Part shown: positions 2,005 to 33,052 of the stretch, in pieces
Layout: each line of letters opens with the position of its first letter
How positions within the stretch are numbered: the first letter of the stretch is position 1
DNA from: Candidatus Eiseniibacteriota bacterium
GTDB lineage: Bacteria; Eisenbacteria; RBG-16-71-46
Direction of reading: 5' to 3'
DNA: 59,174 nucleotides
Assembly: GCA_044223135.1 (NCBI GenBank)
Contig: JBGAMH010000001.1
Span: 1-59,174 of the forward strand
Program-made: the position numbers and the translations under genes
Notes under the pieces: model-generated
The model's input: only the letters and a program-made list of their open reading frames with translations
What the model was told of the DNA's origin: nothing
Database searches by the model: none

Positions 2005-2038
2005 GAAGGCCTCCTCCGACGATGCGATGACGCGTCGA

Positions 2039-6385: not shown

Positions 6386-6605
6386 TCCTTTCCCGTCCCG
6401 GCCCGCGACGTCGCGGGCCGCGGGCGTCGTGTCATCGCGTGGCCGCCGGACACGAGGCGTCCTCGGTCGCGCGCGCTTCCCCCTCGCAGTGAACTGCGCC
6501 GTTCCGATCGAGCCGGCTCGTCGACTCCCTCGCGGGGCGGCTGCCGTGGTTCTCTCCAGCGTCCGGTCAGGCCCGGAGCCGCCGACCGGAAGACAGGAAT
6601 CGGCC

Positions 6606-10279: not shown

Positions 10280-10280
10280 C

Positions 10281-10311
10281 CGCGCGGGGCCCCGCGCGGG
10301 GGCCCCGCGCC
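10281..10311. terminator. GC-rich palindromic hairpin between convergent genes
   Basis: Sequence cgcgcggggccccgcgcgggggccccgcgcc contains the self-complementary GCGCGGGGCCCCGCGC plus an overlapping near-copy. It fills the 36-nt gap between two convergent stops. There is no U-tract. Confidence 0.35.
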
Positions 10312-10315
10312 CGCC

Positions 10316-17657: not shown

Positions 17658-17746
17658 CCGTTCCCCTCCCTTCGTGCTTCGGCCATAGTGCGACACCTCC
17701 CCGACGGTGCGACGAGTACCCGGACGACAGCAACCCGAGACGGAGC

Positions 17747-20700
17747 ATGTCCCACCCGCGCCACAACGACCAAGACTCGAAGCGCGTTCCGTGGCGCCGA
17801 CTGGTTCGGGGCCTCCTCCTGCGCCTGTTGCTGGGTGCGCTCGGCGCGACCTTCCTCGCGAGTCCGGCACCCGCACTCACGAGCGGCAGGCGCCCACGGG
17901 CGCTCGACGAGGCGCGCCGGATCGAGGCCCGGGCCTCCACCGATCGCGAGCGCGGAGCCGTCGGCGAGGCGGCGGCGGGCTTCGCGCGCGCGGCGGACCA
18001 CCGTTTCGCGGCGGGCGCGTCGCACTCGAACATCGCCGATCGACTGGACAGCCTGGGACGGACGTTTCACGACGTTCCCCATGCGGGCGCATGGGCGGCC
18101 GAGGACTCGCTGCTGGAGATCGCACACCAGTGGCGTCGACGGGATCCCGACGCCACGGCCTTCGACCTCGGGTTCGATCACCTCCAGCTCGCCCGGCTGG
18201 CCGTGGAAACCCACCGCCCCGCCACCGGCCTCCCTCACGCCGATTCGGCATGGGTCCTGTTCGCAGCCAGCCCCGATCCGGGCGCACGCCTCTACGGTGC
18301 TCTTGCGCGCGCGGCCAGAGGTCGGCTCTCGTTCGACGTCGGTGACTACGTCGACGCCGACACGTCGGCCACCGCGGCACTGTCGGGAATGGATGCCGGC
18401 GATGTGCAGCAGGCGCCCTACCGGTTCGACGCCCTCACCGCGCGCGGGGAAGCCCGACGCGAACGGGGTCGCCTCGCCGAAGCCGAAGCCGATTTCCGGG
18501 CCGCACTCGATCTCGCCGAACGCGAAGCAGCCGATCCGGCCTGGAGGCCCAACGCACTCAATCTCATTGCTGGCCTCCATCGCGATCAGGAGCGTTGGGA
18601 TCTTGCCGAACCGCTCCTTCGCGAGGCGCTGGAGCTGTCCCGTCCTCTCGAGCAGAACGATCCTCGTCGCGTCGCGACGGCCGTCTTGAACGTGGCGGAA
18701 GCCCTGCAGCACCAGGGACGGTCGCAGGAGGCAGCGCCCGGTTACCTCGAGGCCGTCGAGCGCGCGCGACGCGCGTGGCCACCCGAGGACCCGGGGCTCG
18801 TCGTGTTCCTGCAACAGGCCGGGGACTGCCTCCGGCAGGTCGGACGGGGGGAGGACGCCGAACGGCTTCTGCGGGAAGCCGTCACGACAGCCCGTGCCGA
18901 CTCGCAGGGCGGCCCACTCCCGCTCGCCGGTGCCATGCACGCACTCGCCGAGCTGATGCTCGAACGCGGCCGCGTGGTGGCCGCCGATTCGCTCGCCCGC
19001 GGATCTCTGACCCTGCGCGAACAGCGCCTCCCGTCGGATTCCCGTGTGCTCGCCGAAAGCCACGAGCTCCTCGCGCGCTGCGCGCTCGCGGAGGGGGCGG
19101 GTTCGCTGCGCGAAGTGGAGATCCATGCGGAAGCCGTGCTGCGCATCCTCGGGCAAAGCCCTCTCGCCCCCGACACGAGGCTCTCGGCATTCGCGGCCCT
19201 CGCGGGTGTCGCCGAAGCGCGCGGCGACACGGGCGCGTTCGATCGATGGATGGGAAGCGCCCTCCCGGTCGTCGACGAGTTGCGGCTGACGCGTGGGGGG
19301 GATGCCAGTCGGGTGCAGTTCCTGCGGCGCGCGCTCCCGATGTTCGACCGCGTATTCGATCACGCGATCGCGGTCGGCGACATCGACCGCGCCTTCCAGA
19401 TTCACGAGCGTGGCCGGAGCCGCGTCCTGCTGGAGACTCTCGCTGCTCCCCGCGCGCTCGGGGGCACGGACGACCGAAGCGGCGATCCGCTCGTCGCGCG
19501 CCTCGACACGCTGCGCCAGCAACTCACCGGCCTCCAGGCGCGGCTCGACTCGGAAGGGCAATGGTCGATGCTGTCCGAGAGCGTCCAGTTCGAGCGTCGG
19601 TCGGCCCTCGCGGCCCGTCGTGACAGCCTCGTGCTCGAGTACGCCCGTGTGCGAGACGCCGTCCGCATGCGCCGCCCCGGGTGGCGAGACGCGCTCGCGC
19701 ACTCGCGCTCGACCGTGGGCGCGCCCGCGGTCCTCGCGCACGCCCGGCGCCTCGGCGAGCCGGTGCTCGTCTATCACGTGAGTGCGCGGGGGGCGTGGCT
19801 CTTCTCGTTCCTGCCCGGCGATCGGCAACCGCGGCTCGACACGCTCCGGCTGGCCGAGACGGCGGCGCGGGCACTCGGAGTTCGACCCGGCCCGCTCGAT
19901 GACGCACGCCTCTCCGTGATCCTCGAAGGGACCTCGCCGGGAGCCGGGCTGCTCTCGGCCCTGGCGCGAGGTGAAGGGGACACCCGCGGATTCTCGCGCG
20001 TGCGCACCGACGCGGTGATCGCTCCGACCGACGCGCGACTGAAACTCCTGTTCGAAGCACTCGTTCCGGCCACGACCTGGCGCCGGATTCGCCATGCGCG
20101 TACGGCCGTCGTGATCCCGGACGGCAGCCTCGCGAGTCTGCCGTTCGATGCGCTCGTCGTGGACACCGGCGCGACGGCGTCCGCGCGCCGCTACTGGCTC
20201 GACGACGGCCCCGCATTGCGGGTCGCGCCCTCGGCGAGCACGCTGCTCGTGTTCGACGATCGTCCGCGCGGGCCTCATCGCGATGGCCGCCTCGCGCTGT
20301 CGCTGTACGACGTCGAATACCGGGACACTTCCCAGGCCGACCGAACCGTCGCCTGGAGACCGCTGCCGGGCACGCGCGTCGAGGCCGAACGGCTCCGCAG
20401 CGCGCTGGGAGCCGCCAACGTGGACACGCTTTCCGGTACGCGCGCCACGGAGGCGGCACTTCGAGAGGCTCTCCCCGGGCACGCGCTCGTCCACCTGGCG
20501 ACCCACGGCTTCGCCTCGGGGGACGAGAGCGAGCTGCTCGCTGGCCTGGTCCTCGCGCCGGGAACGAGCTCGCGTCGCCCCGAGGACGACGGCCGCCTCC
20601 AGTCGTACGAGTTGCCCGAACTCACGCTCGATGCCTCCCTCGTGGTGCTTTCCGCCTGCGAGACGAACGGCGGCCGGCGCATCGCGGGCGAGGGCGTGTT

Positions 20701-20947
20701 CGCGCTCTCGCGCGGATTCCTTGCCGCCGGCGCACAGCGCGTGATCTCCGCGCTCTGGTCGGTGCCCGACGATGCAACGGCCGAACTGATGGGCGGACTG
20801 TTCGAGCGCCTCGCCCCGGCGCTGCGCTCCGCGCGTACGCCCGATGCCGTCGTGGCGCTGCGCGACGCCAAGCGGCGCGTCCGGCGCGACCCCCGGTGGG
20901 CCGCGCCGTCCGCGTGGGCCGCGTTCACGATGTCCGGCCGCCGGTAG
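17747..20947 (+). CDS. TPR-repeat CHAT-domain protease-like protein with N-terminal hydrophobic anchor
   Basis: N-terminus MSHPRHNDQDSKRVPWRRLVRGLLLRLLLGALGATFLASPAPA. TPR-like helical repeats follow (LNVAEALQHQGRSQEAAPGYLEAVE and others). The C-terminal CHAT motifs are LVHLATHGF and VVLSACETNGG..GFLAAGAQRVISALW. Confidence 0.85.
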   Translation: MSHPRHNDQDSKRVPWRRLVRGLLLRLLLGALGATFLASPAPALTSGRRPRALDEARRIEARASTDRERGAVGEAAAGFARAADHRFAAGASHSNIADRLDSLGRTFHDVPHAGAWAAEDSLLEIAHQWRRRDPDATAFDLGFDHLQLARLAVETHRPATGLPHADSAWVLFAASPDPGARLYGALARAARGRLSFDVGDYVDADTSATAALSGMDAGDVQQAPYRFDALTARGEARRERGRLAEAEADFRAALDLAEREAADPAWRPNALNLIAGLHRDQERWDLAEPLLREALELSRPLEQNDPRRVATAVLNVAEALQHQGRSQEAAPGYLEAVERARRAWPPEDPGLVVFLQQAGDCLRQVGRGEDAERLLREAVTTARADSQGGPLPLAGAMHALAELMLERGRVVAADSLARGSLTLREQRLPSDSRVLAESHELLARCALAEGAGSLREVEIHAEAVLRILGQSPLAPDTRLSAFAALAGVAEARGDTGAFDRWMGSALPVVDELRLTRGGDASRVQFLRRALPMFDRVFDHAIAVGDIDRAFQIHERGRSRVLLETLAAPRALGGTDDRSGDPLVARLDTLRQQLTGLQARLDSEGQWSMLSESVQFERRSALAARRDSLVLEYARVRDAVRMRRPGWRDALAHSRSTVGAPAVLAHARRLGEPVLVYHVSARGAWLFSFLPGDRQPRLDTLRLAETAARALGVRPGPLDDARLSVILEGTSPGAGLLSALARGEGDTRGFSRVRTDAVIAPTDARLKLLFEALVPATTWRRIRHARTAVVIPDGSLASLPFDALVVDTGATASARRYWLDDGPALRVAPSASTLLVFDDRPRGPHRDGRLALSLYDVEYRDTSQADRTVAWRPLPGTRVEAERLRSALGAANVDTLSGTRATEAALREALPGHALVHLATHGFASGDESELLAGLVLAPGTSSRRPEDDGRLQSYELPELTLDASLVVLSACETNGGRRIAGEGVFALSRGFLAAGAQRVISALWSVPDDATAELMGGLFERLAPALRSARTPDAVVALRDAKRRVRRDPRWAAPSAWAAFTMSGRR

Positions 20948-22003: not shown

Positions 22004-22032
22004 TTCGTTGCGCAGGACGCGACGGTGTGACA
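22004..22032 (-). promoter_or_regulatory. bipartite element TGTCACAC-N13-GCAACGAA (copy a); candidate ECF-type promoter of paralog A
   Basis: Minus strand reads tgtcacac cgtcgcgtcctgc gcaacgaa, ending 74 nt before the start at 21930. Confidence 0.6.
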
Positions 22033-22216
22033 GCGATCGTGAAAACGGCGTCCGTGTGTGGGCGGAGGCGCTTTTTCATGGGGGAATCCCGCGCCGGGCT
22101 TGCTAGGCTTCCCGGGCGGGAAAGGCGTCAGCGGGCGTCCGTTCCCCGTTCACAGTCCGGACGTCCGGTGCGCCGGGCGTCACGACCGATGGACCTGGAC
22201 GCCTGGAGCCCTTCCC

Positions 22217-25200
22217 ATGCGCATGCGCCAATGGGTGCTCGCCGGCCATTTCGCCGCCGCACTCCTCGCCCTCGCCGCTATCGCCGCCCCCGCGCGTGCC
22301 GCCCGCACGCTGATCAGCCCGAGGCCGATCGACCGGCCGTACCCCACGTATGCGGGCGTGGTCATCGGGTCGTTCCGACCCGCGTGCAGCCAGGTGACGA
22401 TTCATGTGGCCCGCTGTTCGGATCTCCAGCTCGGCGGCTGCTACGGATTCGGCGGCGGTGGAACCTTCGACGTTCTGTGCGTCGCGGATTCCGCGTCGGT
22501 CGCGAACCACCTGACGACGGGCCTGCAGGGTTTCTCCGGCGGGTGCAACGCCGACGACGAGGGCCAGAATCGAAACACCCAGAACTACGACCAGACCAAT
22601 CGTTCCTTCCCCGTCCACTGGCAGGCCTCGTCGCGCGGATGGAGGCTCCATGGACAGGCGCAGTGGAACTCGGGCATTCGCCTCGCGCATTACGGAGACT
22701 CCGCCACCATCGTCGTCACGGGCCTCACGCTCGGGCAGGCCTACACGCTGTACGGAACGACTTCGCCCTACGATCCCCTTTCGTCGGGATCCGTCTGCAC
22801 GAATCTCACCGCGTGGGTCACCGAGGACTCGAGCATCGTCGAGCACGACTGGAGCACGTCCGCCAGCTCGGCGCTTCCCGTTTCGCTCGCGTCCCGAGCA
22901 TTCACGCTGGCCGCGAGCCCGCAGGGAGGCGTGTTCGTGCGGTGGTCCGATGGGGACAGCGCGCGCACGGCGCGCGTGGACGCGGACGGCGCCGCGAGCG
23001 TCTTCGACCGGTGGGTGGGAAGCGCGACGCACGGGCTGACGAAGCCGGACGGCTGGGCTTCCGTGACCGATGCGCAGGGAAACGAGCTCCGCCTCTGCGG
23101 AGAATACGGCGCGGGCTTTGGCGGAGCCTTCCTGTCGGCCCGCAAGTCCGACGGAGCGGGCAACGCTCTCGCAGGTTGGCCCGACCGTGGTGACCCGCCA
23201 CGGACGCTCGTCGACCTGACCGGGGACCAGGAAGCCCCCGCCGCGACGGCCACCTCCGACGGCGGCGCGATCGTGGCGTGGACCGACACGCGCAATGGCG
23301 CCTACTCACGCAACTGGCGGGACGTGCTCACGGCGGCCTCGACGGACGACTACCAGCTGCTCCGCGTGGACCTCCAGAACGACGGCCGCGACGAACTCCT
23401 CTCGGTCCGCATCGCCGAGGACCGGATCGTCGCGTTCGCCCGGCAAGGCGACGCACTCGCTCCGATCGACACGTTTCCGACCAGTCACACCCCCGTCATC
23501 GCGCGCACGGCGGACCTCAACGCGGACGGACGGCCCGATATCGTGGTCTCCTGCGCGAACAGCGACTCACTCGATGTGTACCTCAGCACAGGCGCCCCGG
23601 GCGTGTACGCGCGGGGCGCCATCACGGGGGCCGCCGGCGCCTCCGACCTCGTCCTGGCGGACCTCTCGGGTGACGGCCTTCCCGACGTGGCACACGTTCG
23701 CCCTCATGCACCGGCGATGGCCGTCCGCCTCGGGCTCGGAGGTGGCGCGTTCGGCCCGGCCATCGCCTACGCGGCCCCGGTCGAACCGGAGTTCATCGCT
23801 GCCGGAGATCTCGACGGCGATGGCCGCACGGATCTCGCCGTGCTCGGTTACACGACCCCCCAGGGAATCGTGCGTGCCTACCGGAACCTCGGAGGCGGCG
23901 TCTTCGCCGCCGCGGGAGATCGCAGCGTCGAGCCCTCCGCTCATGGTCTCGTGATCGGTAAGTTCGCAGGCGACTCCCGGGACGATGTCGCCGTGCCTCC
24001 GGGACTCAACGGGCCCAGCACCACGCTCAGGATCTTCGCCGGCAGTGCGGGAGGCGACATCCTCTCCGGAGGAGTCGCGAACATCTCGCTGGCGGCTCAT
24101 CCCTACACGCTCGTCACCGACGACATCGACCAGGACGGCTTCGCGGATCTCGTCGCGCCCTATTCCCCTGACGGGACCGCGCCAGCCCAGGTGCTCTGGG
24201 GATCGGCCGCGGGTGTCGGCGCTCCCGTGTCCCTGCCGGCCTCCCTCCGGTCCCGTTGGGCCGCGGCGGTAGACCTCGACGGAGACGGCGCACGGGAGCT
24301 GGTCCTGTCCGATACGGGTCCGGTTTCGCCCTACTGGAGCACGCTGCACGTCCACCAGCGAGTCCGACGCGGACGGGACGTCTATGCGCTGCGAGTGACT
24401 CCCGGGGGGGCCCCGGCGCCCGGCTGGACCGCCACGGGCCTCGCTGTCGCGACGGACACGATGGACGTCGAACACATCCGGATCGTCGGCGACGGCCAGG
24501 ATGGCGCCTACGTCGCCTGGGAGAGCTTCCCGCCCTCGGATCCTTCGGGGTGGCTCGTGTTCCCGAGGAAGGTCCGCGTGCAGCATGTGCTCGCGAACGG
24601 CGAACTCGATCCGAACTGGCCCGACAGCAGCTACGGTGGCGTGTGGCCCGGCGGATCCGTACCACAACACCTCACGGACCAGGTTCCGATGCCGAACGCA
24701 CCCGACGGCCTCGGAGGTGTGGTCCTCGGCTACTGGGCCGACAACCCTAACGAAGTGCGACGGGCGTACGCCCGCCGCGTCACCGACGCGTCGGAAGTGA
24801 CACCGCTGCTCCAAGCATCCGGCGGTGCGAGGCCGCGCCTGGGCGCGTGGCCCGACGCCGATGTCCAGGCGGCCTGGCAGGGTCTGGCCGGGAGCTTCTC
24901 GACCCTGCGTCTCTCACCGGAGGGGGTTCCCCGGCCGGGCTGGCCTTCCAACGGCACGATCCTCACGTCATCGCTCGACACCGGTGCGATCGAGGAGAAC
25001 GGGGCGCTCTGCATCACCGACTCGGCGCATGTCGTGTTCGCCTGGCGCGACAGCGGGCGGGTTCGCGTGCGGAGGCTGGGCGCGGGCGGAACCACCGGAT
25101 CGTGGCCCGCTCCCATCACGGCACTGTCTGCCGCTTCGTCGCAGGAGCAGCTCGTCGCGGGACGCCGGGGCGAGACGTTTCTGGCGGCGCGCGGAGCGGA

Positions 25201-26179
25201 CCAGATCGTCGTGCAGCGGATCGACGCGACCGGCGCGGTGGGCGACATGAGCCCCGAGATCGCCCTCGCGGCGGACAGGCGGCCCGACCAGGGTGGCGTC
25301 GTGCGCGTGAGCTGGCTGCCGAGCCCGCTGGAGCGCTCGACACCATTCCGCAATGAAGGCGGAACGTACCGGCTCTACACGGTCGCGCCCTCCGGTGCGC
25401 GCACGCTGGTCTCGGTTCAGACCGCCGGCGAGGGATGCGCCTACTGGGCGGACGTGGCGATCCCGGGAGTCGTGCCGGCGAACTTCACCGAGTTCGGCCC
25501 CAAGCCCCGAACGGTGTTCGAGCTCGAAACGCTCAACCCGACGACCGGGGACGTGCTGGTGGCGCCGCGCGACAGCGCCTTCTCGGTCGACGATCTCCCG
25601 CCGCCCGCACCCACCGCCTTCAGCTCGGCCTTCACCGCGACCGGGGCCGGGACCGGCATCACCGAGTTCGACTGGACCCCGACGCCGGTCGGCGACCTCG
25701 CGGAGTACCGGATCTTCGGCAGCCCGGATTCGCTGTTCTGGTCGCACGTGACGACGACGCCCGCACCGGCCTCGCACGCCAGCGCCCCGACGCCCGCGGG
25801 GAGGAGGTTCTTCCGGCTCTACGCTGCGGACATCCACGGCAACACGAGCGCGCCGGCTTCGCCGGTGTTCCAGCTCGATGCCCCCGACAGCGGCGCCCCA
25901 CTCACACTGTCCTTCGCGCCACCCTCGCCGAGCCCGGCCCGCACGAGCACGCACATGCGACTGTCGCTGCCCTCGCGCGCGTCGATCGAACTCGCCGCGT
26001 TCGACCTGCTCGGCCGGCGCGTGCGGCGCATCGCGGGGGGCGAGCGCGCCCCCGGCGTGTACGACGTGTCGTGGGACCTGCGCGACGACGAAGGCCTCTC
26101 GCTCGCGCCAGGGCTCTACCTCGTTCGCCTGCGCACGGGCGGCCGGGAGTTCCGCCATCGCGTCCTCGTCGTCCGATAG
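22217..26179 (+). CDS. giant secreted FG-GAP/VCBS repeat protein with FlgD-Ig/T9SS-like C-terminal domain
   Basis: 1320 aa. Signal peptide MRMRQWVLAGHFAAALLALAAIAAPARA. FG-GAP repeats VDLQNDGRDELLSV, ADLNADGRPDIVVSC, ADLSGDGLPDVAHV, GDLDGDGRTDLAVLG, DDIDQDGFADLVAP and VDLDGDGARELVLSD. The C-terminus reads IELAAFDLLGRRVRRI..APGLYLVRLRTGGREFRHRVLVVR. Confidence 0.9.
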   Translation: MRMRQWVLAGHFAAALLALAAIAAPARAARTLISPRPIDRPYPTYAGVVIGSFRPACSQVTIHVARCSDLQLGGCYGFGGGGTFDVLCVADSASVANHLTTGLQGFSGGCNADDEGQNRNTQNYDQTNRSFPVHWQASSRGWRLHGQAQWNSGIRLAHYGDSATIVVTGLTLGQAYTLYGTTSPYDPLSSGSVCTNLTAWVTEDSSIVEHDWSTSASSALPVSLASRAFTLAASPQGGVFVRWSDGDSARTARVDADGAASVFDRWVGSATHGLTKPDGWASVTDAQGNELRLCGEYGAGFGGAFLSARKSDGAGNALAGWPDRGDPPRTLVDLTGDQEAPAATATSDGGAIVAWTDTRNGAYSRNWRDVLTAASTDDYQLLRVDLQNDGRDELLSVRIAEDRIVAFARQGDALAPIDTFPTSHTPVIARTADLNADGRPDIVVSCANSDSLDVYLSTGAPGVYARGAITGAAGASDLVLADLSGDGLPDVAHVRPHAPAMAVRLGLGGGAFGPAIAYAAPVEPEFIAAGDLDGDGRTDLAVLGYTTPQGIVRAYRNLGGGVFAAAGDRSVEPSAHGLVIGKFAGDSRDDVAVPPGLNGPSTTLRIFAGSAGGDILSGGVANISLAAHPYTLVTDDIDQDGFADLVAPYSPDGTAPAQVLWGSAAGVGAPVSLPASLRSRWAAAVDLDGDGARELVLSDTGPVSPYWSTLHVHQRVRRGRDVYALRVTPGGAPAPGWTATGLAVATDTMDVEHIRIVGDGQDGAYVAWESFPPSDPSGWLVFPRKVRVQHVLANGELDPNWPDSSYGGVWPGGSVPQHLTDQVPMPNAPDGLGGVVLGYWADNPNEVRRAYARRVTDASEVTPLLQASGGARPRLGAWPDADVQAAWQGLAGSFSTLRLSPEGVPRPGWPSNGTILTSSLDTGAIEENGALCITDSAHVVFAWRDSGRVRVRRLGAGGTTGSWPAPITALSAASSQEQLVAGRRGETFLAARGADQIVVQRIDATGAVGDMSPEIALAADRRPDQGGVVRVSWLPSPLERSTPFRNEGGTYRLYTVAPSGARTLVSVQTAGEGCAYWADVAIPGVVPANFTEFGPKPRTVFELETLNPTTGDVLVAPRDSAFSVDDLPPPAPTAFSSAFTATGAGTGITEFDWTPTPVGDLAEYRIFGSPDSLFWSHVTTTPAPASHASAPTPAGRRFFRLYAADIHGNTSAPASPVFQLDAPDSGAPLTLSFAPPSPSPARTSTHMRLSLPSRASIELAAFDLLGRRVRRIAGGERAPGVYDVSWDLRDDEGLSLAPGLYLVRLRTGGREFRHRVLVVR

Positions 26180-26197
26180 CCCGGGGACGAGCCGAAG

Positions 26198-26222
26198 CCC
26201 CGCCGGGGATCTCCCGGCGGGG
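26198..26222. terminator. 10-bp GC hairpin between convergent genes
   Basis: ccccgccggg-gatct-cccggcgggg, 19 nt after the stop at 26179. There is no U-tract. Confidence 0.4.
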
Positions 26223-26328
26223 CGAGGGGCTTCGTCACCGTGCCAGCGGGTCGCGGTGCGGAGCCTCCCGGATCGTGCTCCGCGTGGGGCGAGACCTCCT
26301 TTCCGGTGCGCCCACGCACCGGCGGGAA

Positions 26329-26688
26329 TCACCGCGCCGTGATCCGGTACTCGTTCCAGACGGACCCGCGGTTGTCGACCTCGATGCGATAGCTGCCGCC
26401 GCGCGGCACGTAGAACCGCGTGATGCACACGTCGGTGTCGTCGTCGTCCGACGCGATCATGCGGCCGCTCTCGTCGTACACGTACAGATCGAGATCGGTG
26501 TCGTGGTCGCCGATCACGGTCACGCTCGCGTACTCGCCGCCGCGGAACGACACGTTGAACGCATCCTCCGACCACGCGTTCACGCGGTGCACGCCCGTCT
26601 GCGTCCCTCCCCAGGGACCCGCCACCGCCGCCTGCGCCACCGCCACCACCGCCAGCACCGCCGCCACCAGTCCGTTGAACTTGCGCAT
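26329..26688 (-). CDS. small exported PPC-like domain protein, paralog B
   Basis: 119 aa. AGGAGG lies 6 nt before the ATG. Signal peptide MRKFNGLVAAVLAVVAVAQAAVAG. Motif VTVIGDHDTDLDLYVYDESGRMIASDDDDTDVCITRFYVPRGGSYRIEVDNRGSVWNEYRITAR. Roughly 45% identical to paralog A by hand alignment over about 87 aa. Confidence 0.85.
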   Translation of the reverse strand: MRKFNGLVAAVLAVVAVAQAAVAGPWGGTQTGVHRVNAWSEDAFNVSFRGGEYASVTVIGDHDTDLDLYVYDESGRMIASDDDDTDVCITRFYVPRGGSYRIEVDNRGSVWNEYRITAR

Positions 26689-26763
26689 CGTCTGCCTCCT
26701 GTCGGTGAGCCCGATGGGCTCGTGGTCTTCGTTCCGGCGCTCCATCCGAGCGCCTTCACACCG

Positions 26764-26792
26764 TTCGTTGCTCGACCCGGCGGGCTGTGACA
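26764..26792 (-). promoter_or_regulatory. bipartite element TGTCACAG-N13-GCAACGAA (copy b)
   Basis: Minus strand reads tgtcacag cccgccgggtcga gcaacgaa, ending 76 nt before the start at 26688. Confidence 0.6.
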
Positions 26793-26935
26793 TCGGAGTC
26801 CCCCGCGCGCCACGAAGCGCGGTCGCGCCGCAGGTGGAGTGGTGGACGGCGGCGCCGCAGGCACGAGACACGAAGAAGCGGACCGGCCGCATGGGCCGAT
26901 CCGCTCCTCGTACCGAGCTCCGCTTGCCGCGCGGG

Positions 26936-27304
26936 TCAGTCGCCGTGGCGCAGGTGGCGCAGTCCCTCGCGCCAGGGATGCACGCGGGCCCCGCGACAGT
27001 CGCTGCCCTCGCAGTCGCCCGCGGCGCGCGCGGCGCGACGGTCGCCCGTATCGCAGACCTGCGGGCGGGCGACACGGCCGCGACAGTCATTGCCCTCGCA
27101 GTCGCCGCGGGCCGATGCGACCGCCGCCGCCGCAGGCGCGCTCCCGGCGAAGCACGGATCCGTATCGCATTCGCCGCGAACGACAACCACCACCGTGGCC
27201 GGTGCAGGGGTCTCGATGCACGGATCCGTCTCGCAGCTCCGTCCCGGGCCGGCCATCGCCACGAGCCCCAGTCCCAGCGCCAATCCCATCACGATCGCCT
27301 TCAT
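26936..27304 (-). CDS. small exported acidic Cys-repeat (CX4C) protein with His-rich tail
   Basis: 122 aa. GGAGG lies 6 nt before the ATG. Signal peptide MKAIVMGLALGLGLVAMAG. Repeats CETDPC, CDTDPC, GDCEGNDCRG and GDCEGSDCRG. Tail HPWREGLRHLRHGD. The nucleotide repeat gacagtc(g/a)(c/t)tgccctcgcagtcgcc appears twice. Confidence 0.7.
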   Translation of the reverse strand: MKAIVMGLALGLGLVAMAGPGRSCETDPCIETPAPATVVVVVRGECDTDPCFAGSAPAAAAVASARGDCEGNDCRGRVARPQVCDTGDRRAARAAGDCEGSDCRGARVHPWREGLRHLRHGD

Positions 27305-27364
27305 CTGCCACCTCCTTCGTTCGAGTGTCCGCCGTGGATCCGGCGGCCCGTTGCCGCCGCCCGC

Positions 27365-27393
27365 TTCGTTGCCCGGAGCGCCCGGGTGTGACA
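27365..27393 (-). promoter_or_regulatory. bipartite element TGTCACAC-N13-GCAACGAA (copy c)
   Basis: Minus strand reads tgtcacac ccgggcgctccgg gcaacgaa, ending 61 nt before the start at 27304 and 13 nt after the lipoprotein stop. Confidence 0.6.
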
Positions 27394-27405
27394 CCCCGTC
27401 CGGCG

Positions 27406-27780
27406 CTAGTTCACGTTCAGCGACACGGCGGCTGGCACGTCGCTGTCGTTCTCGACCGTGATCTCCACGCGTCCGCCCCCCTGCGCGGCGCCCCCGACCA
27501 CGTCCGCACCCGTGTACGCCCCCTCGGCGGCGAGCGCGCCCGACGCCCCGAAGACCCGGACCTCCATGCCCACGGTGACGAGTCCCGGGCTGCACGCGAC
27601 GGCCCACGTGCCGTCGTGCGCGAACGTCTGACCGACCACGACCCGCTCGCCCGGATTCACCGAGCGCGTGTTGAGCGCGGTCGCGAGGATGTCCTCCGCG
27701 ATGCACCCCGTGAGCGAAGCGCCGACCAACCCCGCCAGCACCAACGCCATCGTCGCCCGAACCGCCTTCCGCATCGCCAT
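27406..27780 (-). CDS. small lipoprotein, beta-rich
   Basis: 124 aa. GGAGG lies 6 nt before the ATG. Lipobox in MAMRKAVRATMALVLAGLVGASLTGC. The C-terminus GGGRVEITVENDSDVPAAVSLNVN resembles the last strands of the PPC-like proteins. Confidence 0.7.
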   Translation of the reverse strand: MAMRKAVRATMALVLAGLVGASLTGCIAEDILATALNTRSVNPGERVVVGQTFAHDGTWAVACSPGLVTVGMEVRVFGASGALAAEGAYTGADVVGGAAQGGGRVEITVENDSDVPAAVSLNVN

Positions 27781-27850
27781 GCCGCACCTCCCGTTCGTGG
27801 GCGGGCACCGCGCGCCGTCCGGGGCGCGGCGTTTCCGCCGGTACGCCTCG

Positions 27851-27879
27851 TTCGTTGCGCGCGCGGCGCGCGTGTGACA
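27851..27879 (-). promoter_or_regulatory. bipartite element TGTCACAC-N13-GCAACGAA (copy d)
   Basis: Minus strand reads tgtcacac gcgcgccgcgcgc gcaacgaa, ending 71 nt before the start at 27780. Confidence 0.6.
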
Positions 27880-27901
27880 CCCGGACGGCCGACGGTTTCC
27901 G

Positions 27902-27931
27902 TTGACCCTGTCACACGCGGTTCCCTAGGCT
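27902..27931 (+). promoter_or_regulatory. sigma70-type promoter candidate TTGACC-N18-TAGGCT for the sigma operon
   Basis: ttgacc at 27902-27907 and taggct (fits TAnnnT) at 27926-27931, 51 nt before GTG 27982. The spacer contains TGTCACAC (27909-27916), the inverted mate of the box at 27872-27879. Confidence 0.4.
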
Positions 27932-27981
27932 CCCGCCCCACGCGCCGCGCCGACCCGGCCGGCGGGAGGCCCACTCAGACC

Positions 27982-28563
27982 GTGACGGAACCCATCCCCG
28001 CCCGAGAGGAACAGCGCATCGCGTCGGAAGCCCGCACCTGGTACCTCGCCTTCTTCGAGCGGCGGGTCGGGGCGCGTGGCCGCGACCTCGCTGACGACCT
28101 CGCCCAGGAAGCGGCCATCGGCCTGCTGCGCGCGCTGCGCGCGACGGGCGCCGATTCGCTCGAGGCCCTGCGCGCGACCATCGGAACGCGTACGTGGTTC
28201 GGCTTCCTGCGCCGCGAGTACCGGTGGAAGAAGGTCTGGGACGACACCGCCGTGGAAGAGACGGACGCGCCGGCGCCGCCCGCGACGCAGCCCGGGGCCC
28301 ACCTGCACGTGGGTGATCCGGGCGAACGACTCCGATTCCAGGTGCTCGAGTTCTATCGCGCCCACAACGCGAAGTGCCTGGGGCTCGCCGAGCTCTTCTT
28401 CGGCGGGGTGGACTGGATGGACGCCGCCTCGCGGCTGAACCTGGGGTACGCGGCCATCCGCCAGCAGTGGTCCCGCTGCCTCAAACTGCTGCGCGAAGTC
28501 GTGACCCGCGACGAGGACCTGCGTGACTCGCTCTGGGCCTTCTGGAGCGACAGCGATGCCTGA
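27982..28563 (+). CDS. ECF-type sigma-70 family factor (divergent)
   Basis: 193 aa from a GTG, with GGAGG 12 nt upstream. Region-2-like segment DLAQEAAIGLLRAL..TRTWFGFLRREYRWKK. Region-4-like HTH WMDAASRLNLGYAAIRQQWSRCLKLLRE. Followed by an anti-sigma gene. Confidence 0.65.
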   Translation: MTEPIPAREEQRIASEARTWYLAFFERRVGARGRDLADDLAQEAAIGLLRALRATGADSLEALRATIGTRTWFGFLRREYRWKKVWDDTAVEETDAPAPPATQPGAHLHVGDPGERLRFQVLEFYRAHNAKCLGLAELFFGGVDWMDAASRLNLGYAAIRQQWSRCLKLLREVVTRDEDLRDSLWAFWSDSDA

Positions 28564-28723
28564 CGCCCGTCACAGCGAGGCCCCCCGCGCAACGATGCCT
28601 GCGAGGGGCCGATGGATCGGGGGCGTTCGCGGCGGGAACGGCACCCGGTGCGAGGGCGCGAGCCCGTGGATCCACCACGGCGCAGCGACCGCGCAGAGGC
28701 CCTCGAGGTCTGCGAATGAGTGA
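28556..28723 (+). CDS. possible 55-aa bridging ORF between sigma and anti-sigma genes
   Basis: Its ATG at 28556 overlaps the sigma stop (ATGCCTGA) and its stop at 28721-28723 overlaps the anti-sigma start (ATGAGTGA). GC3 is about 84% by hand count. The Arg/Gly-rich sequence has no recognisable motif. Confidence 0.25.
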   Translation: MPDARHSEAPRATMPARGRWIGGVRGGNGTRCEGASPWIHHGAATAQRPSRSANE

Positions 28724-29675
28724 CACGCGAACGCCTCCGGGCGGCCCGCCGCCGGCCGACCACGCCTGGGTACTGAGTCGCCTCGCCCCGTACTGGGCCG
28801 GCCTGCTCGACGACTCCGCGAACGAGCGCGTCGAGTCGCACGTCGCCTCGTGCGAGCCGTGCCGACGCGCATGGGAGGCGCAGTCCGCGACGCCGGCGAT
28901 CACGCCGGGAGCCGAAGCGCACGTACCGGCGGCGCTCGTCGCGGACTGGGATCGCCAGCAACGCACGCTGCGCGGGCTCGAACGGGCCACCGTCCGGCAT
29001 CACCTCGAACGCTGCGACGATTGCCGCCGCGACCTGCAGGCACTCGGTCACGAGCCCGTGCTGGAGTTCATCGCCGCGCTCGAGCCCGAGGGCATGATGC
29101 CCGGCACGGCGGCGCCACCCGCCGCTGCACGGCGGGAGGTTCGACCGACGGCGATGGAGGGCGCGCTCGATCGCCTGCGCCGTTTCAACTGGGTCCTCGG
29201 AAGCTGGGCCGCCCTCGCCACGAGCGCCGCCGCGGTGATGACGTTCGTGCTGTTGCGCGGTGGGGCACCGATCCCGGAGGGCACGCTGCCGCAGCCGGGA
29301 TTCGGCGGACCGGGCACGACCAGCATCTCCTCCGGCGCACTCCCTTCGGTGGAGGCCGCGGTCACGCTCGTGCTTCAGCCGGGGGCACCGGGCGAGGGAC
29401 CGGTCGCCCTGGCCCCGGCGGCGGCGCCTCGACGCGTGATCGCGCTGCAGCTGCGCGGGCTGACCACCGCACCCGACGACAGCCTCCGGTTCGTGATCGA
29501 GCAGGGCTCGCGGACCGTCGTCCGGCAGGCTCTGCCAGCGAAGCTCGCCGCCGATTCGGTGTTCACGGTGGTCCTGCGCGGCGCCCCGAGGGCGCTGCCG
29601 CCGGGCGCCTACCGGCTTCGCGTCGGGGGTGCCGCCGGGGAGAGGGCGTATGCCTTCCGAATCGCGGAGCGCTGA
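28716..29675 (+). CDS. membrane anti-sigma factor with two zf-HC2 (ZAS) motifs
   Basis: HVASCEPC and HLERCDDC both fit H-x3-C-x2-C. One transmembrane segment (WVLGSWAALATSAAAVMTFVLL) is followed by a ~135-aa extracytoplasmic domain. Confidence 0.75.
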   Translation: MSDTRTPPGGPPPADHAWVLSRLAPYWAGLLDDSANERVESHVASCEPCRRAWEAQSATPAITPGAEAHVPAALVADWDRQQRTLRGLERATVRHHLERCDDCRRDLQALGHEPVLEFIAALEPEGMMPGTAAPPAAARREVRPTAMEGALDRLRRFNWVLGSWAALATSAAAVMTFVLLRGGAPIPEGTLPQPGFGGPGTTSISSGALPSVEAAVTLVLQPGAPGEGPVALAPAAAPRRVIALQLRGLTTAPDDSLRFVIEQGSRTVVRQALPAKLAADSVFTVVLRGAPRALPPGAYRLRVGGAAGERAYAFRIAER

Positions 29676-31686
29676 GCGCAAGCGAGGCCCACGAGGGATC
29701 GCGGTGCGCCTCGGAACGGGCCTGGCGCTCACGCTCATGCTCACGCTCGCGCTCGCGAACGGCGCGGGTTCGGCAGGACCCGTCCGGCTCGTGCGCCCCG
29801 GCGCGACGGTCGAGCTCCGACGCGCGCCCATCGGCACGCAACCGCTCATCGGCCTGCCGGTGGTTCGCGCCCTGCGGGCAGGCAGCACGCCGAAACGCCG
29901 TGAAGCCGCCGACGACCGCCTGGTCGCCTATCACGTCGAGTTCGCCGACGCGGCCAGCTGCAACCGGTACGCACCGCCCGGAGGGACGGTCTTCCATCGC
30001 TTCCAGCGCTTCGCCGGCGTGTTCGTGGCTTCGGACCGGATCGACGACCTCGTCCGGGCCACGGTGCGCGCGCCCGGATTCCGCGCGATCGAGGACGACG
30101 ACATCACGCAGCTCCCTCCGCGCCCCCGGCCGAGGACCGCACCACCCTCGAAGGCGGTGCCCGAGAACATCGTGCGCGGCGGGCTCGCCGGGCTCACCGG
30201 GCGCGGCACGCTCGTGGGCATCGTGGACACCGGCGTCGATTTCCGGCACAGCGACTTCGTCACGGAAGGGTCCGACGGTCCTCGTTCACGCATCGTGGCG
30301 TACTGGGACACCGGCCTGCCGTTCGATCCGTCGCGCGGCAGCGGGCGACCGGGCCCGATCACCTATCCGAACGGCCAGCCCGTGGGCACGGTGTTCACCG
30401 GCGCCGAGCTCACCCACGCCCTGCGGAATGGCGGACTCGACGATCTCGTCGATCACGTCGGGCACGGCACGGCCTGCGCCGGGATCGCCGCCGGCAACGG
30501 GCGCGGCCTGGAGAGCACGCGCGAGGTGCTGGGCGTGGCTCCCGGCGCCGCGCTGCTCGTGGTGCGCGCCCAGACCTCGGACGAACTCCCCGGGCTCTCG
30601 AACTTCGTGATCACTCCCGCGGTCCACTGGATGAGCACCATCGCCGACTCGCTGCGCCGCCCGCTCGTCGTGTCCTGCTCGTTCGGCCAGCAGATCGGTC
30701 TGCACGACGGCAGCCGGCTCGTCGAGCGCGAACTGGAAGCGCTGCTGCCGGACGGAGCGCCCGGGCGCGCACTCGTCGTTTCGGCGGGCAACGACGGCAC
30801 GCGGCCGGTGCATGCTCGCATGACGCTCGGCGCGAAGCCGCAGGTGCTCGAATGGCATTGTGGCGACGGCGACGCGTTGCTCGAGCTGCACCTGCGGACC
30901 CGCGACTCGAGCGCGGTGCAGGCCGCGGTCGCCGTTCGCTCCGACAACCGCCCGTCCGACATCGCGACCTACCCGCTCGCGCCCGTCGTGAAGGGCTCCG
31001 CCTGGCAGATCGTGCGCTTCCGGGTGGCAGGCGACATCGGCGGCATCTACCTCTGGTCGAAGACTCCGGGCGTGCCGGTCGAGGCCTACATTTCGGGTGG
31101 GGAGTTCGCCGCCCGGTTCACGGTGCCGACGGGCACGGTGGCGAGCCCGGGTACGTGCCGCGCGGCGATCACGGTGGGGAGCTACGACTGGAACGACATG
31201 TTCGATCAGAAGGGGCTCGGCCCGACGACACTCTTCAACGCCTGTTCGGAGACACCCATCGAGATCGGTGAACTCTCGTGCTATTCCAGTCGAGGCTTCG
31301 TGCACCGCGGGCTCGTGAAGCCCGACCTCGTCGCGCCCGGGCAGTGGTTCACGGCACCCGTGTCTCTCCTCGCGCCCGATCGGCCCGCCGGGCTCGGCAT
31401 GGCTTCCGCGGGAGTGTACGAAGGCCTGCACGGCTCCGGGCACTACCGCTGGTTCAACGGCACGAGCGCTGCCGCGCCATACGTGGCGGGCGTGCTCGCT
31501 CTGGCGCTGGAGCGCGATCCCCGTCTCACGCTCGGTTCGCTTCGAAACCGATTGCGCGCGAGCCTCTCGCGGGACGCGACGACCGGCGCCGTGCCCAACA
31601 CGGCGTGGGGATACGGTCGGCTCGACCTCGCCGCCGTGAAGCGGTTCCTCGCCGTCGGCGTGCGCGCCACACCCCGGGGTCGTTGA
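29650..31686 (+). CDS. secreted subtilisin-like serine peptidase (family S8)
   Basis: Signal peptide RLGTGLALTLMLTLALANGAGSA. Catalytic triad contexts GIVDTGVDFRH, DHVGHGTACAGIAAG and FNGTSAAAPYVAGVLALAL, with VVSAGNDG for the oxyanion Asn. It overlaps the anti-sigma 3' end by 26 nt; the alternative start is 29629. Confidence 0.9.
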   Translation: MPSESRSAERKRGPRGIAVRLGTGLALTLMLTLALANGAGSAGPVRLVRPGATVELRRAPIGTQPLIGLPVVRALRAGSTPKRREAADDRLVAYHVEFADAASCNRYAPPGGTVFHRFQRFAGVFVASDRIDDLVRATVRAPGFRAIEDDDITQLPPRPRPRTAPPSKAVPENIVRGGLAGLTGRGTLVGIVDTGVDFRHSDFVTEGSDGPRSRIVAYWDTGLPFDPSRGSGRPGPITYPNGQPVGTVFTGAELTHALRNGGLDDLVDHVGHGTACAGIAAGNGRGLESTREVLGVAPGAALLVVRAQTSDELPGLSNFVITPAVHWMSTIADSLRRPLVVSCSFGQQIGLHDGSRLVERELEALLPDGAPGRALVVSAGNDGTRPVHARMTLGAKPQVLEWHCGDGDALLELHLRTRDSSAVQAAVAVRSDNRPSDIATYPLAPVVKGSAWQIVRFRVAGDIGGIYLWSKTPGVPVEAYISGGEFAARFTVPTGTVASPGTCRAAITVGSYDWNDMFDQKGLGPTTLFNACSETPIEIGELSCYSSRGFVHRGLVKPDLVAPGQWFTAPVSLLAPDRPAGLGMASAGVYEGLHGSGHYRWFNGTSAAAPYVAGVLALALERDPRLTLGSLRNRLRASLSRDATTGAVPNTAWGYGRLDLAAVKRFLAVGVRATPRGR

Positions 31687-31693
31687 CGCCCGC

Positions 31694-33052
31694 TCACCGC
31701 AACAGGACGACGGACGTCGATCGCCGCTGCCGCGTCGCTTCCAGGACCGCGAAGTAGACCCCCGGCGGCAGCACGCGGCCGTCCGCGCCGAGCGTGTTCC
31801 AGACGGCTTGCCTCGGGCCCGGCGGCAGGTCCGCGTCGAGTATCGTCGCCACGGTCGCGCCGGCCACGTCCAGAACCCGAAGTCGCACGGGGCCCGGAAC
31901 GGGCAGCGCGAACTGGAACCGGACGAGCGTCCCCGCCCGGGCCGGGTTCGTGCCCGCCCGGAGGAGCAGGCTCGCCGCGGGTTGCGGTCGTTCGGCATCC
32001 ACCTGCGCACCACACTGGAAGGGCGTCGCCCAGCACACGCCCGAGAGCGACGGAGCGTTCGTCGAGCGCACGATCGTGAGCTGCTCCGGCGGTCCGTCGC
32101 GCTGAATCGTGTAGCCGGCCCCGGGGCAGGCCTGCTGGAGACACGGCCAGCTGCACGTCCAGTCCGATCCCGTCCACACGCAGTTCCACACGCAGAGGGA
32201 CGTCGGAGAGGGCACCTGGAATCGCTGCGTCTGCCCGGCCGGGATCGTCGACGAGTTGCTGCCCACGGAAACCAGCACGCTCCCGGAATAGGCGTTCGTC
32301 ACCGAGATGGTGCAGGCGCGGCAGGCCACGGGCAGGTCCGGCCACGCGGCCGAGGCCTCCGACGACACTGGCGACGTCGGGTGCGTGGACGAGACGTCCG
32401 CTTCCATCGACACCCCGCACGCGGAGGGCGCGGATACGCCCCAGAAGAACGGCGGATGTCCCGGGTAGGGGGACTCCACGGACCACCAGCCGGTGACCGC
32501 GTACTGGGCGCCGGGCGTGAGCCCCGTCAGGATCAGGCGTGCACGCGCGGTGTCGCAGGGCGCAGCGGGCACCGCGGGCGACGCGGCGAATCGCAGGCAG
32601 CGCGAGCCATTCACGAACGCCACGGAAGCTCCGGCCCCCATCCGCCAGCCATCCGCGAACCAGTCTCCGGCGAAGTCCTCGTCGAGCACCGGAGTGCCAC
32701 TGCTGGAATAGCACCAGTTGTGATAGAGCGGGTTGCCATTGGCGTCCGTCACGTTCGGACAGCGCGTGCAGACGGGATTGCTGCGCAGGTCGCCGTAGCG
32801 CTGAACGAGGATGTCGTCGATGCCGACCACGCCGTACGACGTACCGCTCGAGGACGTGAGCTTCACCGCCAGGTCGACGAAGACCGTGCAACTCGGCGCG
32901 AAGAAGTAGAGCGGGTCCTGCATCTGGCACCAGTCGATGGCCGGGTACGGGCGGTCGATCGGCCGCATGGGCACGAGCGTCCGTTCCGCGTGCGCGTCGG
33001 CGGCTCCCACCAGCAGGGCGATCGCGACGCCGAGGGCCGCCCCGGCGCGCAT
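31694..33052 (-). CDS. secreted Cys-rich protein with FlgD-Ig/T9SS-like C-terminal domain; N-terminal module shared with the giant protein
   Basis: 452 aa. Signal peptide MRAGAALGVAIALLVGAADAHA is followed by ERTLVPMRPIDRPYP. There are many Cys residues (CTRC, CVWNCVWTGSDWTCSWPC). The C-terminus reads VRLRVLDVAGATVATI..PPGVYFAVLEATRQRRSTSVVLLR. The rest of track ORF 31694-34972 is shadow. Confidence 0.8.
   Translation of the reverse strand: MRAGAALGVAIALLVGAADAHAERTLVPMRPIDRPYPAIDWCQMQDPLYFFAPSCTVFVDLAVKLTSSSGTSYGVVGIDDILVQRYGDLRSNPVCTRCPNVTDANGNPLYHNWCYSSSGTPVLDEDFAGDWFADGWRMGAGASVAFVNGSRCLRFAASPAVPAAPCDTARARLILTGLTPGAQYAVTGWWSVESPYPGHPPFFWGVSAPSACGVSMEADVSSTHPTSPVSSEASAAWPDLPVACRACTISVTNAYSGSVLVSVGSNSSTIPAGQTQRFQVPSPTSLCVWNCVWTGSDWTCSWPCLQQACPGAGYTIQRDGPPEQLTIVRSTNAPSLSGVCWATPFQCGAQVDAERPQPAASLLLRAGTNPARAGTLVRFQFALPVPGPVRLRVLDVAGATVATILDADLPPGPRQAVWNTLGADGRVLPPGVYFAVLEATRQRRSTSVVLLR

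What the first reader, a model, noticed from the sequence alone, without database searches (positions are those of the whole stretch)
27982..31686. Sigma / 152-nt spacer with bridging sORF / double-ZAS anti-sigma / S8 protease arranged as one operon
The sigma gene (27982-28563) and anti-sigma gene (28716-29675) are separated by 152 nt, whereas such pairs are usually tightly coupled. The S8 subtilase start (29650) lies 26 nt inside the anti-sigma 3' end, which argues for co-translation of protease and anti-sigma. The anti-sigma carries two consecutive H-x3-C-x2-C motifs (HVASCEPC and HLERCDDC) rather than one. A secreted serine protease encoded in the same operon as a transmembrane anti-sigma suggests it could act as the site-1 protease or as an output of the pathway. 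That role is inference only.
Basis: partly seen in the sequence, partly recalled or inferred. Interest (0 to 1): 0.6.

Follow-up and report, generated by a model that had tools for sequence, protein, structure and literature searches.

The report
ECF sigma module with recruited protease
This is a real but fairly ordinary stress-switch locus (a sigma factor, its membrane inhibitor and a secreted protease) in an uncultured Eisenbacteria genome. The odd gap between the first two genes holds a copy of the sigma factor's own promoter, not a small gene.

Summary
All the sequence observations hold: the three genes, the 152-nt gap, the 26-nt anti-sigma/S8 overlap and the two H-x3-C-x2-C motifs.

- **The gap.** It holds one of only five exact copies in the 4.6-Mb genome of GTCACA-N14-GCAACGA. 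The other four precede small secreted-protein genes within 6.6 kb. In six relatives a near-identical motif lies upstream of a tightly coupled sigma/anti-sigma pair. Here it lies downstream of sigma, so it most likely drives only anti-sigma plus S8 (negative feedback plus output).
- **The bridging sORF.** Not supported. The sister genome has a 1-nt indel that changes its frame, and no homologue was found.
- **The double zinc motif.** It is a trait of the whole anti-sigma family (17 of 19 orthologues; 401 cluster representatives at E<=1e-10).
- **The S8.** It is an active-looking subtilase whose closest solved relatives are Csp germination proteases. It lies beside this sigma in only four lineages and two arrangements. 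In one it is divergent, behind its own sigma-type motif. Elsewhere its family pairs with caspase-like proteases instead.
- **Reading.** Regulon cargo is favoured. A site-1 protease role is untested.
- **Limits.** No RNA data could be obtained.
- **Earlier work.** The scan had already noted the promoter motif on this same DNA, and nothing on other DNA.

The parts
27902..27931 (+). Candidate housekeeping-type promoter of the sigma gene: TTGACC-N18-TAGGCT. Weak, inferred.
   Evidence: Both hexamers are identical in the sister genome G195, while the 18-nt spacer has 3 substitutions. The TGTCACA at 27909 inside it is not conserved (TGTCGCA in G195) and has no -10 half. The consensus scan did not report it, because the -10 matches only 3 of 6.
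27982..28563 (+). Divergent ECF-type sigma factor, 193 aa (sigma2 plus a very divergent sigma4)
   Evidence: The window protein scores 17.6 bits on Sigma70_r2, below the 24-bit cut-off. 19 of 20 family members hit Sigma70_r2. The family profile hits M. tuberculosis SigE at 1.2e-8. The AF2 model has pLDDT 81, and the top 21 Foldseek hits are sigma-factor entries, nearly all ECF-type (prob up to 0.99, E about 0.02).
28564..28715 (+). 152-nt spacer: an internal promoter plus a roughly 113-120-nt leader of the anti-sigma/S8 unit
   Evidence: No frame signal. No Rfam match. The leader fold is no better than shuffles, z = -0.47. No terminator-like site. G195 is 84% identical here with a 1-nt indel.
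28569..28595 (+). Sigma-type bipartite promoter motif GTCACA-N14-GCAACGA, 120 nt upstream of the anti-sigma ATG
   Evidence: There are five exact copies in the 4.59-Mb genome, all within 22005-28595 of the window, against 0.06 expected by chance in the window. Both halves are conserved in G195, with changes only in the N14. A related motif lies 74-137 nt upstream of sigma in six orthologous loci.
28556..28723 (+). The 'bridging sORF' (55 codons): not a supported gene
   Evidence: In G195 the 1-nt indel puts the 3' half in another frame, giving a different peptide. No homologue and no self-record among 5.8 billion proteins. Its first 14 codons lie over the promoter motif.
28716..29675 (+). Single-pass membrane anti-sigma with a tandem (double) ZAS cytoplasmic domain and an Ig-like outer domain
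   Evidence: Each module has four ligands: H16...H42-x3-C46-x2-C49 and H69...H96-x3-C100-x2-C103, all invariant or nearly so. The AF2 model shows two three-helix modules (pLDDT 80-94), a helix at 146-181 and a seven-strand beta domain at 213-316. Module 1 aligns to RsiW and ChrR, and module 2 to DdvA and RslA.
29650..31686 (+). Secreted S8 subtilase, 678 aa, with an I9-like N-terminal region and a long insert; its closest solved relatives are Csp germination proteases
   Evidence: Peptidase_S8 scores 116 bits in two stretches. D193, H272, N381 and S606 are invariant in a 44-sequence family alignment. The best solved relatives are the germination proteases CspB and CspC, at 1e-17. The signal-peptide-like N-terminus is read directly from the sequence.
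29650..29675 (+). 26-nt overlap of the anti-sigma 3' end and the S8 5' end, with a Shine-Dalgarno-like GGAGAGGG just upstream
   Evidence: conserved in G195. The same 26-nt overlap occurs in the 58%-identity lineage, and a 4-nt overlap in the 43%-identity lineage.

Best explanation
**What it is.** The locus is an ECF-type sigma/anti-sigma switch of an uncharacterised family common in Candidatus Eisenbacteria.

**The anti-sigma.** It holds sigma through a cytoplasmic domain built from two tandem zinc-binding (ZAS) modules. It spans the membrane once and exposes an Ig-like domain outside.

**The usual family layout.** The two genes are normally translationally coupled and sit behind the sigma's own promoter (GTCACA-N14-GCGACGA).

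**The layout in this genus.** The motif sits in a 152-nt spacer between the two genes instead.
- Sigma is probably made from a separate, housekeeping-type promoter.
- The anti-sigma and the translationally coupled S8 protease are induced by free sigma.
- This gives negative feedback through the anti-sigma and one output, the protease.
- Four small secreted-protein genes nearby carry the same motif.

**The S8.** It is a secreted subtilase with an intact catalytic triad, closest among solved structures to Csp proteases. It is lineage-specific cargo recruited into this local regulon, not a core part of the switch.

**Shown:** the gene identities, the motif distribution, and the conservation patterns.

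**Inferred:** that the motif is a promoter used by this sigma, that sigma itself is not autoregulated, that translation is coupled, and where the S8 acts.
For: **The motif is specific to this locus**
- All five exact motif copies in the genome cluster within 6.6 kb around the sigma gene. Each is oriented toward a downstream gene and lies 61-120 nt from its start.
- The spacer copy is conserved in G195 in both halves, but not in the N14.

**Relatives show the ancestral layout**
- In six orthologous loci the motif, at 1 mismatch or fewer, lies 74-137 nt upstream of sigma. Those loci have tightly coupled sigma/anti-sigma pairs.
- Of 15 such hits in 428 kb searched, six are in that position. Most of the others cluster at the same loci.

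**The protein identities hold**
- Sigma identity.
- Double ZAS conserved in 17 of 19 orthologues, and 401 cluster representatives at E<=1e-10.

**The S8 is linked but not core**
- Full-length orthologues occur in only 3 of 201 genomes of the phylum and 3 of 89 of the family. Every one lies beside the orthologous sigma.
- Two further metagenomic lineages carry sigma / zf-HC2 / S8 in a row.
- In G113 the S8 is divergent from sigma, with GTCACA-N16-CGACA 118 nt upstream. Five of the six genome-wide matches to GTCACA-N15-16-CGACA lie on that contig.
- Of 80 S8-family loci from other phyla, 78 lack this sigma.
- Downstream cargo of the sigma family varies: propeller/FlgD_ig, LVIVD, CsgG-like plus CHAT, and cytochrome c with a NosZ-like protein.
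Against:
- No terminator separates sigma from the anti-sigma. Read-through would make all three genes one transcript as well.
- The spacer motif differs from the other four copies at two flanking positions (C for T before GTCACA, T for A after GCAACGA).
- The proposed sigma promoter is weak (-10 matches 3 of 6, 18-nt spacer) and rests on only two genomes.
- The G113 -10 variant was defined after looking at that locus.
- The window's own sigma is below Pfam's threshold, and its sigma4 is recognised by fold only.
Confidence: 0.6

Rival explanations
1. The S8 is the site-1 (signal-transducing) protease of the pathway. It is made in a fixed ratio with the anti-sigma by translational coupling. It then cleaves the anti-sigma's outer Ig-like domain on a cue, starting regulated proteolysis that frees sigma.
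For: - The anti-sigma/S8 overlap recurs in three lineages: 26, 26 and 4 nt.
- The S8 has a signal peptide, so it would share a compartment with the anti-sigma's outer domain.
- The S8 has an intact triad.
- S8 orthologues in this phylum are found only beside this sigma.
Against: - 16 of the 19 anti-sigma orthologues examined have no S8 nearby, yet most keep a similar outer domain. The family's signalling therefore does not need the S8.
- In G113 the S8 is divergent and not coupled to the anti-sigma.
- The S8 family is mostly found without any such sigma.
- No known bacterial anti-sigma site-1 protease is an S8 (own knowledge, not checked here).
Confidence: 0.12
2. There is one plain operon from a single promoter upstream of sigma. 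The spacer is neutral or carries a translated bridging sORF that couples sigma termination to anti-sigma initiation. The motif copy there is not a working promoter.
For: - No terminator in the spacer.
- An ORF starting on the sigma stop and ending on the anti-sigma start is open in G000 and G195. A 56-codon ORF was called at the same place in the 58%-identity lineage.
Against: - The peptide is not conserved. There is a frame change between sister genomes and no homologue.
- An open 55-codon frame is expected about 40% of the time at this GC content (own calculation).
- All three frames are largely open.
- A fifth exact copy of a 13-specified-base motif at this spot has negligible chance expectation.
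Confidence: 0.08
3. The S8 is chiefly a maturation protease for co-located secreted proteins. Candidates are the four small motif-driven proteins, or the exported caspase-like C14 and TPR-CHAT proteins 9-14 kb upstream. This would resemble Csp proteases activating a zymogen. The sigma only times its production.
For: - Csp germination proteases are the closest solved relatives.
- 25 of 80 S8-family loci have a C14 neighbour and 16 of 80 a CHAT neighbour within 6 kb, usually directly downstream (examples).
- The window itself carries both.
Against: - No substrate was tested.
- The C14 and CHAT genes in the window have no motif copy and lie more than 9 kb away.
- Synteny elsewhere does not show a protease-substrate relation.
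Confidence: 0.2

Closest known systems
Classical ECF sigma / class I (ZAS) anti-sigma pairs, such as SigW-RsiW, SigE-ChrR and SigR-RsrA
   Same: - A two-domain sigma of about 190 aa.
- An adjacent anti-sigma with the H...H-x3-C-x2-C signature. Module 1 aligns to RsiW and ChrR.
- A bipartite cognate promoter that, in most family members, precedes the sigma/anti-sigma operon.
   Different: - The anti-sigma has two complete ZAS modules in tandem.
- Sigma4 is too divergent for the Pfam models (1 of 20 members hit).
- In this genus the cognate promoter sits between the sigma and anti-sigma genes.
ECF41 promoters (TGTCACA-n16-CGTC; Wecke et al. 2012, PMC3426412)
   Same: The -35 element is the same, TGTCACA, with similar spacing to a CG-rich -10.
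   Different: - ECF41 sigmas carry a fused C-terminal regulatory extension and lack an anti-sigma. This sigma is 193 aa with an anti-sigma partner.
- The -10 here is GCAACGA or GCGACGA.
Csp germination subtilases of clostridia (CspB, CspC; PDB 4i0w, 6mw4)
   Same: They are the best solved-structure and NCBIfam matches. Both are S8 proteins whose catalytic domain is split by a long insert.
   Different: - Identity is low (E about 1e-17 over part of the protein).
- This one is secreted by a diderm-type lineage, with no spore context.
- The fold of the insert was not modelled here.
Regulated intramembrane proteolysis of anti-sigma factors (DegS/RseP, PrsW/RasP) and the eukaryotic subtilisin-type site-1 protease
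   Same: A membrane anti-sigma is encoded next to a secreted serine protease.
   Different: No cleavage evidence. The linkage is confined to a few lineages. No site-2 protease was examined.

Membership tests
ECF (group IV) sigma-70 family | Sigma2 domain (regions 2.1-2.4) | tested here: met
   The window protein scores 17.6 bits, below Pfam's 24. However, 19 of 20 orthologues hit Sigma70_r2 (best 2.6e-9), and the family profile hits M. tuberculosis SigE region 2 at 1.2e-8.
ECF (group IV) sigma-70 family | Sigma4 helix-turn-helix domain | tested here: inconclusive
   Only 1 of 20 members hits Sigma70_r4, and the HMM alignment to SigE region 4 is weak. The AF2 model has helices at 113-190. Foldseek aligns the whole length to ECF sigmas with prob up to 0.99, but E is about 0.02 and TM about 0.3.
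ECF (group IV) sigma-70 family | No regions 1.1 or 3; about 170-220 aa | tested here: met
   193 aa, with family members at 186-214 aa.
ECF (group IV) sigma-70 family | Cognate bipartite promoter upstream of its own operon (autoregulation) | tested here: not met
   This holds in six orthologous loci. In the window the motif is downstream of sigma, and the upstream TGTCACA lacks a -10 half and is not conserved.
ZAS / class I anti-sigma domain (Pfam zf-HC2) | H/C-x23-26-H-x3-C-x2-C zinc ligands on a helical bundle | tested here: met
   Present twice: H16/H42/C46/C49 and H69/H96/C100/C103. zf-HC2 scores 42 bits. Zinc binding itself was not tested.
ZAS / class I anti-sigma domain (Pfam zf-HC2) | Binds its cognate sigma | not tested
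Adjacency held in 19 of 20 loci.
Peptidase S8 (subtilase) | Asp-His-Ser triad in that order, plus an oxyanion Asn | tested here: met
   Peptidase_S8 scores 116 bits. D193, H272, N381 and S606 are invariant in 44 sequences.
Csp-type subtilases | Jelly-roll insert in the catalytic domain, with the prodomain retained | tested here: inconclusive
   There is an insert of about 100 residues between the two Pfam stretches. Csp proteins are the best PDB and NCBIfam hits, though far below the family cut-offs. No model of the S8 was made.
ECF41 | Fused C-terminal regulatory extension and no anti-sigma | tested here: not met
   The sigma ends after sigma4 at residue 193 and has an adjacent anti-sigma. 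Only the -35 motif is shared.
Anti-sigma site-1 protease | Cleaves the extracytoplasmic part of the anti-sigma on a signal | not testable with these tools
   This needs a biochemical or genetic assay.

The most novel reading that the evidence does not exclude
The subtilase is a dedicated site-1 protease for a double-ZAS anti-sigma. That would be a bacterial counterpart of the eukaryotic subtilisin-type S1P step in regulated intramembrane proteolysis. The sigma-dependent promoter would make protease and substrate together, giving a self-resetting pulse.
Probability: 0.1. Interest if true: 0.7.

Novelty: new variant of a known kind. Interest (0 to 1): 0.36.

Why it matters
- **A testable promoter.** It gives a candidate cognate promoter for an uncharacterised ECF sigma family in a phylum with no cultured members.
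- **Natural rewiring.** The same switch appears to have moved from positive autoregulation (promoter before sigma) to negative feedback only (promoter before the anti-sigma). This bears on how ECF circuits evolve and on their use as synthetic parts.
- **An undescribed domain form.** The tandem-ZAS anti-sigma domain has at least 401 cluster representatives and is mostly annotated 'hypothetical'. I found no description of it in the held literature. Whether it binds two zinc ions, and how it grips sigma, is open.
- **Limited reach of the protease link.** It is confined to a few lineages, so its general importance is modest.

Tried and rejected
- **Complex prediction**, S8 (residues 40-678) with the anti-sigma outer domain (181-319): no verdict, score 0.00. 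This is not evidence either way.
Co-transcription could not be examined, and read laying was not used.
- **Homologue search with the 55-aa sORF peptide:** nothing found.
- **Rfam** on 27700-29000: nothing.
- **Leader RNA fold:** not better than shuffles.
- **Sigma-70 consensus and terminator scans:** none found.
- **First motif guess, GTCACA-N14-19-CGT:** no match.
- **Foldseek on the anti-sigma model:** only generic Ig-like hits to the outer domain.
- **Literature.** Casas-Pastor et al. 2021 (PMC7826278) has none of my S8, subtilase or zf-HC2 terms in its main text. No ECF group number could be assigned. A search for tandem or double ZAS anti-sigma factors found no description.
- **PADLOC:** only generic subtilase and caspase domain hits, and no defence system.
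- **DNA of the 58% and 43% S8 lineages:** not retrievable. Their spacers and promoters were not inspected.


Full report
**1. Observation**

The window is a contig of a 4.59-Mb metagenome-assembled genome, 82.5% complete and about 72% GC. Its nearest public relatives are labelled Candidatus Eisenbacteria. Three co-directional ORFs are as described:
- 27982-28563, 193 aa.
- 28716-29675, 319 aa.
- 29650-31686, 678 aa from the ATG. An in-frame GTG lies at 29629.

A codon-position GC plot supports each frame. It shows no coding signal in the 152-nt gap. A convergent gene ends 7 nt after the S8 stop, so the unit ends there.

**2. The three proteins**

*Sigma*
- The window protein alone is sub-threshold: Sigma70_r2 scores 17.6 bits against a 24-bit cut-off, with no region-4 hit.
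- It has homologues in 43 of 201 genomes of the phylum.
- 19 of 20 aligned members hit Sigma70_r2.
- The family profile finds M. tuberculosis SigE at 1.2e-8.
- An AF2 model (pLDDT 81) is all-helical in two blocks. Its top 21 Foldseek hits are sigma-factor entries, nearly all ECF-type, though at weak E-values.
- I accept it as a divergent ECF-type sigma. Sigma4 is recognised only by fold.

*Anti-sigma*
- It has two complete ZAS modules, each with an upstream His and H-x3-C-x2-C. A predicted membrane helix spans 146-181, and a seven-strand beta domain follows.
- Both motifs are present in 17 of 19 orthologues at constant spacing.
- A profile of the two-module region finds 401 cluster representatives at E<=1e-10. 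The best 150 nearly all match across both modules in one stretch.
- The few that carry names are 'hypothetical' or 'RsiW'.
- The double ZAS is therefore a family trait, not a peculiarity of this gene.

*S8*
- It has an intact D/H/N/S set that is invariant in its family.
- It has a signal-peptide-like N-terminus.
- Its catalytic domain is split by an insert.
- Its closest solved relatives are the Csp germination proteases.

**3. The spacer**

All five lie within 22005-28595 of the window, against 0.06 expected there by chance.
- Four copies face small secreted-protein genes on the minus strand.
- The fifth, at 28569-28595, lies inside the sigma/anti-sigma gap, 120 nt before the anti-sigma ATG.
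- In the sister genome G195 both halves of this copy are unchanged, while the N14 and the rest of the spacer have diverged.
- Six more distant orthologous loci have coupled sigma/anti-sigma genes. There a near-identical motif (GTCACA-N14-GCGACGA, 1 mismatch or fewer) lies 74-137 nt upstream of sigma. This is the classical autoregulated ECF layout.
- The -35 half equals the ECF41 -35, but the ECF41 membership features are not met.
- The simplest reading is that this is the family's cognate promoter. In the clade of G000, G195 and probably the 58%-identity metagenomic lineage (159-nt gap), it sits between the two genes.
- Upstream of sigma only a weak, conserved TTGACC-N18-TAGGCT is seen.
- No terminator, Rfam family or unusual fold is present in the spacer.

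**4. The sORF**

- The frame from the ATG on the sigma stop to the stop on the anti-sigma start is open in G000 and G195. A 1-nt indel makes the two peptides differ over their 3' halves.
- All three frames are mostly open at this GC content.
- The peptide has no homologue or record.
- Its first codons overlie the promoter motif.
- I reject it as a gene. A 56-codon ORF was called at the same place in another lineage, but this is what gene callers tend to do in such DNA.

**5. Does the S8 travel with sigma?**

- Full-length S8 orthologues occur in 3 of 201 genomes of the phylum and 3 of 89 of the family: G000, G195 and G113. Each lies beside the orthologous sigma.
- Two metagenomic lineages, at 58% and 43% S8 identity, have sigma / zf-HC2 / S8 in a row with overlaps of 26 and 4 nt.
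- In G113 the S8 is upstream of sigma and divergent from it. A GTCACA-N16-CGACA site lies 118 nt before its start. Five of the six genome-wide matches to GTCACA-N15-16-CGACA lie on that contig. I defined this variant after seeing the locus, so it counts as supportive only.
- Conversely, 16 of the 19 anti-sigma orthologues examined have no S8 nearby. Their downstream genes vary widely.
- Of 80 S8-family loci from Acidobacteriota, Planctomycetota, Armatimonadota and other phyla, 78 lack this sigma.
- The link is therefore real but confined to a few lineages. It looks like cargo recruited into a local regulon.

**6. Mechanism**

*Favoured model (confidence about 0.6)*
- Sigma comes from its own promoter.
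- Free sigma induces the anti-sigma (negative feedback) and the coupled S8 (output), together with the four small secreted proteins.

*The site-1 protease idea (about 0.12)*
- The recurring overlap and the shared compartment are in its favour.
- Against it, the anti-sigma family works without an S8, and G113 uncouples the two genes.
- The one complex prediction gave no verdict.

*A third reading*
- The S8 may mature other exported proteins. Its family shows strong synteny with caspase-like C14 and CHAT proteases elsewhere, in 25 and 16 of 80 loci.

**7. Novelty and score**

- The kind of system is well known.
- The variants are the tandem ZAS domain, which I did not find described in the held literature, the relocated promoter, and the recruited subtilase.
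- The promoter motif had already been reported by this scan on this same DNA. Nothing was found on other DNA.
- No RNA evidence was obtainable.
- Interest is modest, at 0.36.

Noticed in passing
window 15624-20947; loci L049-L118: The S8 subfamily (about 600-710 aa) is syntenic with caspase-fold proteases across Acidobacteriota, Planctomycetota and Armatimonadota. A C14 homologue lies within 6 kb in 25 of 80 loci and a CHAT homologue in 16 of 80, 36 loci in all, often directly downstream of the S8. The window carries a C14 gene (15624-17657, minus strand) and a TPR-CHAT gene (17747-20947, plus strand) 9-14 kb upstream. This could be a protease cascade, but it is untested.
   Followed up: partly
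window 31694-33052 (-); L022 7680-9923: The 452-aa FlgD_ig-tailed protein convergent with the S8 has a homologue in G113 (57% identity over its N-terminal 190 residues). There it sits directly downstream of the anti-sigma in the same direction, as a 748-aa propeller/FlgD_ig protein.
   Followed up: partly
L038 (G198) 90-12211: Six copies of the family motif (GTCACA-N14-xCGACGA) cluster around another sigma orthologue. A second zf-HC2-like gene follows its anti-sigma. This looks like a larger local regulon of the same kind.
   Followed up: no
L025 (G196) 2676-6256: In this orthologous locus a family motif just after the anti-sigma precedes a CsgG-like gene and an 800-aa CHAT protease. A caspase-fold protease may therefore be the output there.
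   Followed up: no
protein P0097: A 2668-aa protein in the representative library matches the second ZAS module in 27 separate stretches, so it is a giant repeat of H-x3-C-x2-C-like units.
   Followed up: no
G000:C84:11193-11690 (-): The same genome has a second, distant paralogue of this sigma (24% identity, E = 3e-10). Its neighbours were not examined.
   Followed up: no
window 27873-27915: TGTGACA and TGTCACA face each other 29 nt apart between the divergent 124-aa gene and sigma. The plus-strand copy has no -10 half and is TGTCGCA in G195, so it is probably not a promoter.
   Followed up: yes
sigma family alignment A3: Sigma4 of this family has invariant W145, W163 and R165 and nearly invariant C132 and C166 (the ...QWSRC... 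block). This signature is unlike standard region 4.2.
   Followed up: no
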